In this document: in pieces, positions 34,207 through 44,379 of the stretch
Layout: every line of letters begins with the position of its first letter
Position numbering within the stretch: position 1 is the stretch's first letter
Assembly (NCBI RefSeq): GCF_009914755.1
Contig: NC_060931.1
DNA from: the human T2T-CHM13v2.0 reference genome, Homo sapiens
DNA length: 64,000 bases
Direction: 5' to 3' (one strand)
Translations under genes and position numbers: made by a program
The notes under the pieces: generated by a model
The model's database searches: none
Told to the model about the DNA's origin: nothing
The model's input: the letters and a program-made list of their open reading frames with translations, nothing else

Positions 34207-34707
34207 TGTCAGGCCTCTGAGCCTAAGCCAAGCCATCGCATCCCCTGTGACTTGCACGTATATGCCCAGATGGCCTGAAGTAACTGAAGAATCATAAAAG
34301 AAGTAAAAATGCCCTGCCCCGCCTTAACTGATGACATTCCACTACAAAAGAAGTGTAAATGTCCGGTCCTTGCCTTAACTGATGATGTTCCACCACAAAA
34401 GAAGTGAAAATGGCCGGTCCTTGCCTTAAGTGATGACATTACCTTGTGAAAGTTCTTTTCCTGGCCCATCCTGGCTTCAAATCTCCCCCACTGAGCACCT
34501 TGCAATGCCCACTCCTGCCCGGCAGAGAACAACCCCCCTTTGACTGTAACTTTCCTTTATCTACCCAAATCCTATAAAACGGCCCCACCCTTATCTCCCT
34601 TCACTGACTCTCTTTTCGGACTCAGCCTGCCTGCACCCAGGTGATTAAAAGCTTTATCGCTCACACAAAGTCTGTTTAGTAGTCTCTTCACACCGACAGG
34701 CATGAAA
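34207..34707 (+). mobile_element. Solo LTR7 (HERV-H LTR) with three U3 repeat units
   Basis: TGTCAGGCCTCTGAG...CATGAAA; TATAAAA 34573-34579; ATTAAA 34644-34649; perfect 5-bp TSD ATTTA (34202-34206 and 34708-34712); no PBS follows. Confidence 0.96.
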
Positions 34708-35179
34708 ATTTAAATATATTCGAATGCTATGGGTCTAAGGTCTAAGATTGTTTTGGATTTTAAACCAAGGTTGAATTCCAATTTGGTCTTTGTTATGGTT
34801 TTCTTTGGAAAGGCGTTATGCCATTGAGTCAGTTAAAAGTGAAATTTACTCATAATCCTTGGTCAAGGGTTTTATAACCCTCTCATCTTTGAATTACTTA
34901 TAACTTACTTTAGAATTATTGTTCATCCTCTTCCCTTTCTTTTACATTATCCATGCTCCTCATATAACATAGCTATAATTAATGAGTTTTACCAAGTCTG
35001 TTTCCTGAGTCTGTAAATCCAGGGGGGCATATATTTCCATATAGCATCTAGTGTTCTAAAAATGCTTGTCTAGGCGATTGGGTTCCCACCTCAGCCATCC
35101 TGTTCCCTCATGGGATTCTGAAGTTATCATGTTTATAATTTACCATCATTTCAATTATAGTAGGTTTCATCACATCAGC

Positions 35180-37651: not shown

Positions 37652-38700
37652 TCAGTGGGGTCCCACACAGAAGGGACATGGCTTAGGAGGAATCCTGGGC
37701 TGTGGGCATTCCTTGGCCCCGTGGCCAGATTTCTGGCACTTATAGCAAGCTCCTGGGGGAGGAGGTTCTGGAGGAATGCCTGGCTGCTGCGCTTCAGGTG
37801 TTTGGAAGCTCTTGTGTGCTGGAGATGTGGCTGGGGTTTGTCTCACAGTGGAGGCAAGGAATTGCAACTTTTTTCTATTATTGTACACCTTGAAGGCGAG
37901 GTTAATTAAATCCTGTTGTGGGGTTTGAGGGCCGGAATTTAATTTTTGGAGTTTTATTTAATGTCGGGAGCAGATTGGGTAATAAAATGTATTTTGAGAA
38001 TAAGACGGCCTTTTGACTTTTTAGGGTCTAGGGCTGTAAAGTGTCTCAGGGTTGCTGCCAAACAAGTCATGAACTGGGCTGGATTTTTATATTTGATGAA
38101 AAAGAGCCTAAACGCTATCTGATTTGGGATAAAGAAAAAGGAGCATTAAGCTTGACTGTGCCTTTGGCTCCAGCCAACTTTTTAAGAGTAAATTGCTGGG
38201 CAGGTTGGGGAGGGCTAGTCATGGAATGAAACTGTAAGCTGGACCAGGTGTGAGGAGGGGAGGTGATAAAAAGATTATAGGGTGGAGGAGCAGAGGATGA
38301 GGAAGAATTGGGATCTAGCTCGGCCTGGAGAGGAGCAGCCTGGGGAGGAAGGGAGAGGTCAGATGGGTCTGTAGAAAAGGAAGATTAGAAAGACTCAGTG
38401 ACGCTTGGGGTTGGGACTGAGGGGACAGGCGGGAGGGAAAGAAGGAAGATTTGGGACGAGTTGCACTGGGCACAGAGACTAGGAACGGACTGATGTGTAA
38501 AAGAATGCCTGGACTTCAGGCACCTCAGACCATTTGCCTATTTTACGACAAGAATTATTTAGATTTTGCAGGATGGAAAAATTCAAAGTGCCATTTTCTG
38601 GCTATTTGGAACTACTGTCGAGTTTGTACTGGGGTCAAGCGGCATTGCAGAAGAAAATAAGGCATTTAGGTTTTAGGTCAGGTGTGAGTTAAAGAGGTTT
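37652..38700 (-). pseudogene. gag: HERV-H gag remnant including nucleocapsid CCHC knuckle
   Basis: ORF 37652-37888 PPPPGACYKCQKSGHGAKECPQP; upstream frame broken; 5' boundary approximate. Confidence 0.82.
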
Positions 38701-38779
38701 TAAGTTTTTGAGAACACAGGCCAAGGGAGTAGAAGGAGGAATGGAGGGTGGAAGGTTGCCCATAGTGAAGGAAGCAAGC

Positions 38780-39130
38780 CCAGAGAAAAGAGTAGAGACA
38801 CAGAGAAGGGGTGGGGGGTTCTTGCCCTCCAGAAAAGCAGAGAAAGGGTTGGGGCACGGAAATAAGGGATTGGGGCACAGAGATAAGAGGTTGGGGTGCG
38901 GAAATAAGGGATTGGGGTACAGAGATAAGAGGTTGGGGCGTGGAAATAAGCGATTGGGGGGTTCTTGCCCCCTAGGAAAGCGGGACTTGCCGCTAAGGGT
39001 GAAGGAGAAGGGGTTGAGGGGTACTTGCCCCTCTCCCAGAAAAGCAGAGAAGGGGTAGAGACAAGGAGAGAAGGGGTTGAGGTACTTGTCCCTTCCCCAG
39101 AAAAGAGGGACTTGCCGCTAAGGGTGAAGG
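38780..39130. repeat. HERV-H leader tandem repeats (about 21/42-bp ggggcacggaaataagggatt / ggggcacagagataagaggtt units; duplicated ccagaaaagc...gacttgccgctaagggtgaagga blocks)
   Basis: Read directly. Confidence 0.85.
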
Positions 39131-39583
39131 ACCAAGGCAGGCGTCCCTGCGTGGTCTGACACCCTTGAAACGTGTAAGTATAATCAGAGAGGTGTCCCTG
39201 CAGTGATTAAACACCAAGGGAAGGCTGCCTTCCCAGTCCGTGACTGGCGCCGGAGTTTTGGGTCCATGGATAAAACGTGTCTCCTTTGTCTCTCCCAGAA
39301 AATGAAAGGAATTGAAATGAAGAGAAGGGAGAGATTGAAGTGTAGCACCAAAATTGAAAGGAGAAAGAGGTTGAGGGATAGTGAGGGAGGTTGGAGAAGA
39401 GAGTAAAAAGAGGCCGCTTACCGGATTTGAAATTGCTGAGATGTTTCTTGGGCTGGTCGGTCTGAGGACGTGAGGTCGTAGGTGGATCTTTCTTATGGAG
39501 CAAAGAGCAGGAGGACGGGGGATTGATCTCCCAAGGGAGGTCCCCCTATCCAAGTCACGGCACCAAATTTCATGCGCGTCCAT
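38993..39583 (-). CDS. Candidate ESRG/HESRG-like HERV-H leader ORF, 196 aa from AUG (frame stays open further upstream into the LTR)
   Basis: MDAHEIWCRDLDRGTSLGRSIP...SNPVSGLF...PAPVTDWEGSLPLVFNHCRD...RPRRDACLGPSPLAASP...GASTPQPLLLHP matches my recollection of the ESRG protein; translation unproven. Confidence 0.35.
   Translation of the reverse strand: MDAHEIWCRDLDRGTSLGRSIPRPPALCSIRKIHLRPHVLRPTSPRNISAISNPVSGLFLLSSPTSLTIPQPLSPFNFGATLQSLPSLHFNSFHFLGETKETRFIHGPKTPAPVTDWEGSLPLVFNHCRDTSLIILTRFKGVRPRRDACLGPSPLAASPSFLGKGQVPQPLLSLSLPLLCFSGRGASTPQPLLLHP
39416..39424 (-). promoter_or_regulatory. HERV-H major 5' splice donor CCG|GTAAGC
   Basis: Plus strand gcttac|cgg; standard position about 145 nt after the LTR. 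Confidence 0.8.
39548..39565 (-). promoter_or_regulatory. Primer binding site for tRNA-His
   Basis: TGGTGCCGTGACTTGGAT, one mismatch to TGGTGCCGTGACTCGGAT, 2 nt after the LTR end. Confidence 0.93.
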
Positions 39584-40016
39584 GTGAAGAGACCACCAAA
39601 CAGGCTTTGTGTGAGCAACATGGCTGTTTATTTCACCTGGGTGCAGGCCGGCTGAGTCCGAAGAGTCAGCGAAGGGAGATAAGGATGGGGCCGTTTTATA
39701 GGATTTGGGTAGGTAAAGGAAAATTACAGTCAAAGGGGGTTTGTTCTCTGGCGGGCAGGAGTGGGGGTCACAAGGTTCTCAGTGGGGGTGATTTTTGAGC
39801 CAGGATGAGCCAGGAAAAGGACTTTCACAAGGTAATGTCATCACTTAAGGCAAGGACCGGCCATTTACACTTCTTTTGTGGTGGAATGTCATCAGTTAAG
39901 TTGGGGCAGGGCATATTCACTTCTTTTGTGATTCTTCAGTTACTTCAGGCCATCTGGGCGTATACCTGCAAGTCACAGGGGATGCGATGGCTTGGCTTAG
40001 GCTCAGAGGCCTGACA
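39568..40016 (-). promoter_or_regulatory. 5' LTR7 promoter of the provirus
   Basis: TATAAAA at 39694-39700 (-); two CACAAAAGAAGTG units; AATAAA in R. Confidence 0.93.
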
Positions 40017-42259: not shown

Positions 42260-43700
42260 ATGTATGTGGTAGTCATGATTGCTGTCCATATCAGTTATGT
42301 CTGGGCCTTCTTCCCTGCCACCTTGCAATTGGGAAGCTCTATGGTCTAGGTTGCTTTGGACAATGAAATGTTAACAGAAGTGACTTGTATCATTTATGAA
42401 CTGAGATTTTTAAAACAGCAATAATCCATTACATTTTTTTTCTCTGCCACAGTGATATAGTTTAGCTATGTCCCCACCCAAATTTCATCTTGAACTATAG
42501 TTCCCATAATCTCCACAGGTCATGGGAGGGACCTGGTGGGAGGTAATTTAATCATGGGGGTGGTTACCTTCATGCTGTTCTTGTTATATGAGTGAGTTTT
42601 CACAAGATCTGATGGTTTTACAAGGGGTATTTCCCCCTTTGCTCGGCACTTCTCCTTCGTGCCATCATGTGAAGAAGGACATGTTTCCTTCCAGTTCCAC
42701 CATGATTTTAAGTTTCCTGAGGCCTCCCCAGCCATGCTGAACTGTGAGCCAATTAAACCTCTTTCCCTATACATTATCCAGTCTCGGGTATGTCTTTATT
42801 AGCAGCATGAGAAAGAAGTGATACACAGAGTACCCAGGAAATATTCCAGAAAATATCTTCTTGTTTTCTCAGCCTAGGTCCCAAAATAAGAATGACTTAG
42901 AGAAGAGGCCTTAGCTAACCTTCATAGGACATAAAATTTGAGTAAAAAACTAACCTTCAGTGCTTACATCATTAAGTTGTTTGTTGTACATCTTAACCTA
43001 GTATAAATGAATGTTCCCATAAGGGGAAACACTTAAATATGTGGTATTTGTTTAGGGTCTGACTGGTAGATAGTGAATAAATAATGGTTGGCTGTTGGAA
43101 AGCAAGCAATCTATGCTATGTAATGGCGAAAATGTTGGTAACATTTTTGCTATGATAGCTTGGAAGGCAGGTCAATTACTAATGAACCTGCAGCTTTGAG
43201 GGAAGAAGTTGGGATGTGCAGGGTTGGAAGCATATGTTGATTGCTATTGGCTATATTTGGCGATGTATTAAAAGGAAGAGATGAAAGGAGGAAAGAATTG
43301 ATCAGTTTGCAACTAGAAATGAAAGAGAATAGAGAAAAATCACAAAATTAGGTACCTGCAAGTTTGCAAAAGATAGATGCTTGTCAATTACCGAGTAAAT
43401 AAAGTAAAATAAAAGTGATAGAAGACATTTGAAATAATTTGAAAAAATGAGATGTCACTGAATATTGGATATTATTTCAAAATGAATGAGATTAAGAGTA
43501 ACATATTTGAAAATAATACAATATAAAATAAAATATTATAAAAAATTTGAGCACGGAAGTCTATTTGAACCTCAGCCTTTCTGTTCAGATCCAATTAGTG
43601 TTAGAAGTACAATATTGGTACTTGAAAAAGTTAAATGGATTAAAGTGGTGTGTATTAGGTCCATTCAACTGGACAAAATAGCACAGGGAAAAAAAAGGCC
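42260..43700 (+). mobile_element. Old MLT1 (H/I/J-like) LTR plus MaLR internal fragment, hosting a THE1
   Basis: ttgctttggacaatgaaatgttaacagaagtgac; aaccttcagtgct...ttgtttgttg; subfamily and boundaries uncertain. Confidence 0.5.
42453..42825 (+). mobile_element. THE1B/C solo LTR
   Basis: tgatatagtttagctatgtccccacccaaatttcatcttgaa...attaaacctctttc...gataca; TSD cacag/cagag. Confidence 0.9.
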
Positions 43701-44222: not shown

Positions 44223-44379
44223 TTAGTGAATAAATGATGAATGGATGTTGGAAAACATGCCATCTATCTTATGTAGTGGTGAAAATGTTGGTGAAGTTTT
44301 TGAGATGATAACAAAGCAGGTCAGTATCTAATGAACTTGTAGCCCTAGGGGAAGAGGTTGCAATTTGCAGCATTAGGAT

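What the first reader, a model, noticed from the sequence alone, without database searches (positions are those of the whole stretch)
38993..39733. Unbroken ESRG-like leader ORF with an apparently newly gained AUG
Seen: the longest ORF in the window (246 codons) runs from the LTR through the PBS and leader, while gag and pol are disrupted. From memory its sequence follows the HERV-H-derived ESRG/HESRG protein down to the C-terminal GASTPQPLLLHP, and ESRG is thought to start at a non-AUG codon in R. Here a 4-bp deletion in R (ctgactcttcgg versus ctgactctcttttcgg in the solo LTR) shifts that CTG out of frame. U5 CAC-ACG-GAC appears instead as CAC-ATG-GAC (39583), giving an in-frame AUG with +4 G and a 196-aa Pro/Ser/Leu-rich product. 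An out-of-frame upstream AUG (GCCATGT, about 39621) overlaps it and would dampen initiation. Inference: a candidate de novo or paralogous ERV-leader protein.
Basis: partly seen in the sequence, partly recalled or inferred. Interest (0 to 1): 0.7.

Follow-up and report, generated by a model that had tools for sequence, protein, structure and literature searches.

The report
ESRG-like leader frame of HERV-H
This open reading frame is the ordinary leader frame of the HERV-H endogenous retrovirus, the same frame that was once annotated as the ESRG protein, and its start codon arose by a common mutation found in dozens of other copies, so it is not a special new gene.

Summary
The stop-free frame 38993..39778 (-) has 261 codons and is the longest in the window. 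An ATG at 39583 gives 196 aa. An out-of-frame ATG lies at 39621. R carries a 4-bp deletion. The frame is 83% identical to ESRG_HUMAN and ends in the same residues.

The feature is not locus-specific. It is the HERV-H "pre-gag" leader frame already described in print. ESRG_HUMAN is that same frame at the chr3 ESRG provirus, read from a CTG.

The ATG is a CpG change (ACG to ATG). It occurs in 229 LTR7 U5 copies and 86 proviral 5' ends, against 577 and 152 with ACG. ATG copies are not each other's closest relatives, so the gain looks recurrent.

Of 65 other ATG-bearing 5' ends read, 14 have an AUG-initiated frame of 196-309 aa. I found no sign of coding constraint: dN/dS is 0.70 in frame and 0.74-0.81 out of frame.

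The curated transcript splices at 39421, which leaves a 62-codon ORF. It also carries an earlier 42-codon overlapping uORF.

Verdict: a decayed proviral leader and one of many ESRG-like paralogous frames. Whether it is translated is untested. Low interest.

The parts
38993..39778 (-). Stop-to-stop open frame of 261 codons (stop codon at 38993-38995). It runs through U3 end, R, U5, PBS, the splice donor and the leader ('pre-gag') of a HERV-H provirus.
38993..39583 (-). AUG-initiated part: 196 codons plus stop. Leu, Pro and Ser make up 40% of residues. No Pfam family matches. 83% identical to ESRG_HUMAN.
39581..39583 (-). ATG derived from ACG by a C-to-T change at a CpG. Context CTTCACATGG.
39493..39621 (-). 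Upstream overlapping uORF of 42 codons plus stop. It starts at the first AUG of the RNA (ACAGCCATGT) in another frame. A family-conserved ATG at 39573 lies in the same frame as this uORF.
39658..39669 (-). CTGACTCTTCGG: the CTG homologous to the annotated ESRG start, followed by the 4-bp deletion that puts it out of frame. It lies 1 nt after the RefSeq transcript start at 39670.
   Evidence: annotation supplied with the finding
39644..39646 (-). In-frame CTG between the transcript start and the ATG. It is a possible near-cognate start; its use is untested.
39565..40016 (-). 5' LTR (LTR7 type) of the provirus. It is 79-94% complementary to the LTR at 34207-34710.
39416..39421 (-). Leader splice donor GTAAGC, used by NR_110182.1 (exon 1 = 39422-39670). 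Splicing here cuts the ORF after codon 54 and gives a 62-codon ORF.
   Evidence: annotation supplied with the finding
38838..39081 (-). Stop-poor tandem repeats (periods 21 and 42) at and beyond the 3' end of the ORF. All three minus-strand frames are open over 38993-39117. Leader-frame length differs among copies (196-309 aa); a paper reports that part of pre-gag varies greatly among elements (PMC3036903).
38689..38763 (-). Gag-like start MGNLPPSIPP... in a different frame, stopped after 24 codons. That this is the gag start is recalled, not tested.

Best explanation
The ORF is the inherited leader ('pre-gag') reading frame of a 3'-truncated, decayed HERV-H provirus on the minus strand. The same frame at the chr3 provirus was annotated as the 222-aa ESRG protein. 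It is open here because the frame is open in most of the closest copies, which implies it was open in the source virus (inferred). The region is also stop-poor, and this copy has happened to escape stop-creating changes. Its ATG arose by ordinary CpG decay (ACG to ATG), a change that has struck this site independently in many copies.

The locus works as an LTR7-driven promoter and first exon of a spliced lncRNA (LOC101928254). In that RNA a scanning ribosome first meets the out-of-frame AUG at 39621, which opens a 42-codon uORF. By leaky scanning it could reach the AUG at 39583, whose frame ends after 62 codons because of splicing at 39421. The 196-aa product needs an unspliced leader.

Shown: anatomy, homology, recurrence of the ATG, and lack of a constraint signal. 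Inferred: that no functional protein is made.
For: - Same frame as ESRG. ESRG_HUMAN (P0037) is 221/222 identical to the frame of the chr3 locus and 185/223 identical to the window frame.
- Family-wide frame. It is open to the usual stop or beyond in 20 of the 29 closest genomic copies. A search found 541 database proteins at E<=0.001.
- Already in print. Passages of PMC6995185 report that Jern et al. [quoted passage not shown]
- Recurrent ATG. There are 229 U5 copies with CACATGGA against 577 with CACACGGA, and 86 against 152 when the PBS is included.
- Independent gains. Among 30 copies, ATG-ATG identity (93.1%) is not above ATG-nonATG identity (93.8%). The nearest neighbour of each of the 7 ATG copies lacks the ATG.
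- Not unique. 14 of 65 other ATG-bearing 5' ends have AUG ORFs of 196-309 aa.
- No constraint signal. Pairwise differences by codon position are 708/665/757. dN/dS is 0.70 in frame against 0.81 and 0.74 in the shifted frames.
- Stop-poor composition. The mean longest open run in resamples is 118 codons.
- Splicing. NR_110182.1 leaves a 62-codon ORF and has an earlier overlapping uORF.
- No Pfam family matches.
Against: - A fully open 261-codon frame is still rare by composition alone (11 of 5000 resamples), so an ancestral viral coding role for the frame is likely and residual translatability cannot be excluded.
- The ATG has +4 G and lies in the first exon of a curated transcript.
- HERVH-superfamily RNAs give ribosome footprints in ESCs (PMC10759522, passages).
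- The constraint test has little power. It used 12 copies, all chosen for being open, and most of their divergence arose after insertion.
- I could not examine RNA-seq, Ribo-seq, peptides or ape orthologues.
- 20 of the 86 ATG-bearing loci were not read.
Confidence: 0.85

Rival explanations
1. The locus makes an ESRG-like 196-aa protein, or a longer one from the in-frame CTG at 39646, from leader-unspliced RNA in pluripotent or germ-cell-tumour cells. The protein would be an unselected by-product, for example a source of HLA peptides.
For: - An AUG with +4 G sits in the first exon of a curated LTR7-driven transcript (annotation supplied with the finding).
- HERVH-superfamily ribosome footprints are high in ESCs (PMC10759522, passages).
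- The frame is intact.
Against: - An earlier out-of-frame AUG with a -3 purine overlaps the start.
- The AUG at 39583 has -3 C.
- The curated transcript shown with the finding (1 of 2) uses the donor at 39421, which leaves 62 codons.
- There are no locus-specific translation data. One search for the gene name found 1 unrelated paper.
Confidence: 0.1
2. It is a selected, functional paralogue of ESRG: a new protein-coding gene enabled by the AUG gain.
For: - The frame is intact and has an AUG.
- ESRG has been called a human-specific de novo gene in reviews (PMC12051474 and PMC4862087, passages).
Against: - There is no codon-position bias, and dN/dS equals that of the shifted frames.
- The AUG is recurrent in 86 5' ends.
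- 14 of 65 other copies have the same kind of ORF.
- ESRG's own coding status is doubtful. It is treated as a lncRNA and reported dispensable, with no evidence of selection (PMC8184003, passages).
- No protein domain matches.
Confidence: 0.02
3. The frame is open purely by chance, from pyrimidine-rich composition, and has no ancestral coding meaning.
For: - The strand is 61% C+T.
- The mean longest open run in resamples is 118 codons.
- All three minus-strand frames are open over 38993-39117.
Against: - Only 11 of 5000 resamples are fully open.
- The same frame is open at the ESRG locus and in 20 of the 29 closest copies. This points to a frame that was open in the source virus, as reported for HERV-H pre-gag.
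Confidence: 0.05

Closest known systems
ESRG / HESRG putative protein (ESRG_HUMAN, 222 aa; chr3 HERV-H locus)
   Same: It uses the same reading frame of the HERV-H R-U5-PBS-leader. Identity is 83% over 223 aligned positions, with the same stop and the same C-terminal GASTPQPLLLHP.
   Different: - The ESRG frame has no AUG. Its annotated M is a CTG at the start of R.
- Here that CTG is out of frame through a 4-bp deletion, and an AUG lies 86 nt further on, so the product lacks the first ~30 residues.
- This copy has two small insertions relative to ESRG near residue 165-170 and differs over the repeat-derived stretch before the C terminus.
- ESRG lacks the upstream GCCATGT.
HERV-H 'pre-gag' leader ORF (Jern et al. 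2005, as cited in PMC6995185)
   Same: It has the same position between PBS and gag in a long leader. Leu, Pro and Ser make up 40% of its residues. It is present across copies.
   Different: In this copy the frame is not continuous with the gag-like start at 38763, which lies in another frame and stops after 24 codons. I could not read the original paper, so equivalence with their ORF rests on position and composition as described second-hand.
MLV-type glyco-Gag (leader-initiated, non-AUG, N-terminally extended Gag)
   Same: It is a leader ORF upstream of gag in a gammaretrovirus-like element, and the homologous ESRG annotation uses a CUG start.
   Different: No fusion to gag is seen here, no sequence similarity was detected (no Pfam match), and no signal or anchor feature was tested.

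Membership tests
HERV-H provirus leader (pre-gag) frame | Lies downstream of an LTR7-type 5' LTR and the His-type PBS, upstream of gag | tested here: met
   The LTR arms pair with the second LTR. U5 is followed by TGGTGCC.... The provirus is collinear with the ESRG HERV-H over 4.8 kb at 92.7% identity. A zinc knuckle lies downstream. That the PBS is His-type is recalled, not tested.
HERV-H provirus leader (pre-gag) frame | The same frame is homologous and open in other HERV-H copies | tested here: met
   Open in 20 of the 29 closest copies. Open for 235 codons at the ESRG locus. 14 of 65 ATG-bearing copies have 196 aa or more.
HERV-H provirus leader (pre-gag) frame | Proline/serine-rich product | tested here: met
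   L 30, P 26 and S 23 of 196 residues.
Glyco-Gag-like extended Gag | Leader frame continuous with gag | tested here: not met
   The leader frame stops at 38993. The gag-like ATG at 38763 is in another frame and stops after 24 codons.
ESRG protein paralogue | Significant full-length similarity to ESRG_HUMAN in the same frame with the same stop | tested here: met
   E 1e-92, 83% identity, 99% of the query covered. 185/223 identities and an identical C terminus.
ESRG protein paralogue | Start at the CTG at the beginning of R | tested here: not met
   The 4-bp deletion shifts it out of frame, and a TAA follows after 13 codons.
ESRG protein paralogue | Pluripotent-cell-specific expression | not testable with these tools
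   Only the RefSeq lncRNA model supplied with the finding is available. No expression data are on hand.
De novo / newly born protein-coding gene | A locus-specific enabling mutation | tested here: not met
   The same ATG is in 229 U5 copies and 86 proviral 5' ends. The gains appear independent.
De novo / newly born protein-coding gene | Signature of coding constraint | tested here: inconclusive
   dN/dS is 0.70 in frame against 0.81 and 0.74 in the shifted frames. Codon positions show 708/665/757 differences. Power is low: the comparison is among paralogous copies, not orthologues.
De novo / newly born protein-coding gene | A mature transcript that contains the whole ORF | tested here: not met
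   NR_110182.1 keeps 54 codons of it, and the ORF in that RNA has 62 codons. The second annotated transcript was not shown to me.
De novo / newly born protein-coding gene | Evidence of translation | not testable with these tools
   No Ribo-seq or MS data are on hand. The literature search gave only family-level footprints.

The most novel reading that the evidence does not exclude
HERV-H leaders form a dispersed family of ESRG-like proteins. At least 15 of the 66 AUG-bearing loci read, this one included, carry AUG-initiated frames of 196-309 aa. Leader-unspliced RNAs from the active ones could jointly be translated in pluripotent cells. That would give a multi-locus Pro/Ser/Leu-rich protein pool that single-locus knock-outs such as ESRG would not remove.
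Probability: 0.06. Interest if true: 0.6.

Novelty: new member of a known kind. Interest (0 to 1): 0.2.

Why it matters
This mainly serves as a caution. The ESRG protein annotation is the generic HERV-H leader frame read from a CTG that, at the homologous place in this window, lies 1 nt after the RefSeq transcript start. Dozens of other loci carry the same frame, some with a real AUG.

Any claim of a human-specific ESRG protein therefore has to deal with this paralogue family. The same holds for peptides, antibodies or Ribo-seq reads assigned to ESRG. For this locus itself nothing sets it apart from at least 14 sister copies.

Tried and rejected
- The census of all 86 ATG-bearing 5' ends is incomplete. 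One batch of 20 loci was not obtained, so it covers 66 of 86.
- Pfam on the 196-aa product and on the ESRG-locus frame gave no family at E<=1.
- Pfam on seven other minus-strand fragments gave only a zinc knuckle.
- Jern et al. 2005 (PMC1091717) is not held, so the pre-gag description is second-hand.
- One search for LOC101928254 found 1 paper, unrelated by its title and abstract.
- The search 'HERVH + Ribo-seq + ESRG' found 2 papers, neither on this question by their abstracts.
- I considered a shared-subfamily origin of the ATG and rejected it, because ATG copies are not nearer to each other than to non-ATG copies.
- I did not simulate neutral decay or build any reference copy. Comparisons are pairwise only.
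- I made no structure prediction. The product is low-complexity with no family, so a fold would not bear on the verdict.

Full report
**Observation**

On the minus strand a stop-free frame runs from 39778 to 38993. It has 261 codons and is the longest of five stop-free frames of 150 aa or more in the window.

The sequence shows these features:
- An LTR7-type 5' LTR.
- The transcript start region GCTGACTCTTCGG at 39670.
- GCCATGT at 39621.
- CTTCACATGG, with the ATG at 39583-39581.
- U5 followed by TGGTGCC....
- The leader splice donor GTAAGC at 39421.

The ATG is in frame and gives 196 aa. The ATG at 39621 is in another frame and opens a 42-codon uORF that overlaps it.

The 4-bp deletion in R is real. 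This copy reads CTGACTC----TTCGG. The other LTR of the window (34604-34619 +), the ESRG locus and two further copies read CTGACTCTCTTTTCGG. The CTG at 39669 is therefore out of frame and meets a TAA after 13 codons.

gag and pol are in pieces. Minus-strand frames are at most 178 aa, and Pfam recognises only a zinc knuckle in 37655-37957.

**Is it ESRG-like?**

Yes, and this is shown directly. A search of the large protein database with the 196-aa product found 541 proteins at E<=0.001. Among them is P0037, which a source names ESRG_HUMAN (222 aa), at E 1e-92, 83% identity and 99% query coverage. The pairwise alignment gives 185/223 identities and the same C-terminal GASTPQPLLLHP.

I placed the ESRG locus in the assembly with a ChIP primer printed in PMC9909993 and fetched it. 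The window's provirus is collinear with it over about 4.8 kb at 92.7% identity.

At that locus the same frame is open for 235 codons and contains no Met. ESRG_HUMAN equals it from residue 14 at 221 of 222 positions. The single difference is M in the database entry against L (CTG) in the genome.

In the window the homologous CTG lies 1 nt after the RefSeq transcript start (annotation supplied with the finding). I infer that the ESRG start may be an artefact of a frame that is open to the 5' end of the cDNA.

**What the frame is**

Passages of PMC6995185 report what Jern et al. (J Virol 2005) saw. [quoted passage not shown] I could not read the original paper.

The window's product fits this description. 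L, P and S account for 79 of 196 residues, and no Pfam family matches.

PMC3036903 (passages) notes that part of pre-gag varies greatly in length among elements. Here tandem repeats of period 21 and 42 lie at 38838-39081, and all three minus-strand frames are open over 38993-39117. In this copy the leader frame is not joined to the gag-like start at 38763.

**How common the frame is**

A DNA search of the window's own assembly gave 2881 first-look candidates, of which 40 were scored. All were 93-95% identical over the full 786 nt.

In the 29 closest other copies, counting from the site of the ATG, the frame is open to the usual stop or beyond in 20. It is broken earlier in 9. The site is ATG in 6, and both hold in 4. 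This set is biased towards copies without indels.

**How common the ATG is**

ACG to ATG is a C-to-T change at a CpG. The genome-wide pattern counts are:

| Context | ATG | ACG |
|---|---|---|
| U5 alone | 229 | 577 |
| U5 with PBS (proviral 5' ends) | 86 | 152 |

The ESRG locus is among the ACG places.

Among the 30 copies, ATG copies are not closer to each other (93.1%) than to non-ATG copies (93.8%). The nearest neighbour of each of the 7 ATG copies lacks the ATG. The gain is therefore recurrent and not inherited from a subfamily.

**Census of AUG-initiated frames**

Of the 86 ATG-bearing 5' ends I could read 66: this locus and 65 others. One batch of 20 was not obtained. Lengths of the AUG-initiated frame in the 65 others:

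| Frame length from the AUG | Copies of 65 |
|---|---|
| 196-309 aa | 14 |
| 150 aa or more | 16 |
| 84 aa, sharing one C terminus | 9 |
| 35 aa | 18 |

The median is 84 aa. The upstream GCCATGT is present in 11 of the 14 long ones.

This locus is therefore one of at least 15 with an AUG-initiated ESRG-like frame of 196 aa or more.

**Constraint and chance**

Among the 12 ungapped, open 196-codon copies (66 pairs), differences fall 708/665/757 on codon positions 1/2/3. NG86 dN/dS is 0.70. The same sequences read in the two shifted frames give 0.81 and 0.74. So there is no coding signal. The test is weak, because the copies were selected for being open and most of their divergence arose after insertion.

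First-order Markov resamples of the 786 nt have a mean longest open run of 118 codons. 164 of 5000 reach 196 codons and 11 of 5000 are fully open. Composition helps, but an inherited open frame is needed to explain the whole.

**Expression context**

The RefSeq lncRNA NR_110182.1 starts at 39670 and splices at 39421. In that RNA the AUG at 39583 opens a 62-codon frame, 54 codons from exon 1 and 8 from exon 2. The first AUG of the RNA is the out-of-frame one at 39621. The AUG at 39583 has -3 C and +4 G; the upstream one has -3 G.

The 196-aa product needs a leader-unspliced RNA and leaky scanning.

Family-level ribosome footprints of the HERVH superfamily are high in ESCs (PMC10759522, passages). 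Nothing locus-specific was found. One search for LOC101928254 gave 1 unrelated paper.

ESRG itself is treated as a lncRNA. It is reported dispensable for pluripotency with no evidence of selection (PMC8184003, passages). Reviews still cite a human-only 222-aa ORF (PMC12228294, PMC4862087 and PMC12051474, passages).

**Verdict**

It overstates novelty: this is the known HERV-H leader frame, with a recurrent CpG-derived AUG, in a decayed provirus whose curated RNA splices most of the frame out.

Translation of the long form is not excluded, but nothing I could test supports it.

Noticed in passing
window 34208-34712 (+): A second LTR7-type LTR lies in the opposite orientation, about 460 bp from the end of the provirus's internal homology (~35174). 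It is followed by non-PBS sequence, and ATTTA can be read on both flanks, which may be a target-site duplication. It looks like an independent solo LTR. The provirus itself has no 3' LTR in direct orientation.
   Followed up: partly
L032:7188-7895 (-) (ESRG locus, G000:C3 ~54.673 Mb): The frame behind ESRG_HUMAN contains no Met codon. The database M stands for a CTG that, at the homologous place in the window, lies 1 nt after the RefSeq transcript start. This suggests the annotated ESRG start is a frame open to the cDNA end and not a usable initiation site.
   Followed up: partly
65 ATG-bearing HERV-H 5' ends (L003-L093): 18 of 65 copies stop after 35 codons at the same place. In the window that codon is CGA (39478-39476), so another recurrent CpG change (CGA to TGA) probably closes the frame often. 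9 of 65 share an 84-aa form with one C terminus, probably a deletion subfamily.
   Followed up: no
window 38993-39117 (-): All three minus-strand reading frames are open at once across the repeat-rich end of the leader. This reflects a stop-poor, pyrimidine-rich composition (61% C+T over the ORF).
   Followed up: partly
window 39573 (-): An ATG (GCGCATGAAATTTGG) at the U5/PBS junction is conserved in all 30 copies aligned. It lies in the same frame as the ATG at 39621, so the family carries a short conserved AUG-initiated frame (26 codons here) across the PBS.
   Followed up: no
window 43071-43157 and 44224-44310 (+): A direct repeat of 87 nt at 82% identity, 1153 nt apart, unrelated to the provirus.
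   Followed up: no
one search hit list: Many of the 541 related predicted proteins come from kilobase-size contigs of sequence-archive sources. ESRG-like frames therefore appear to be predicted as proteins there, which could mislead annotation.
   Followed up: no
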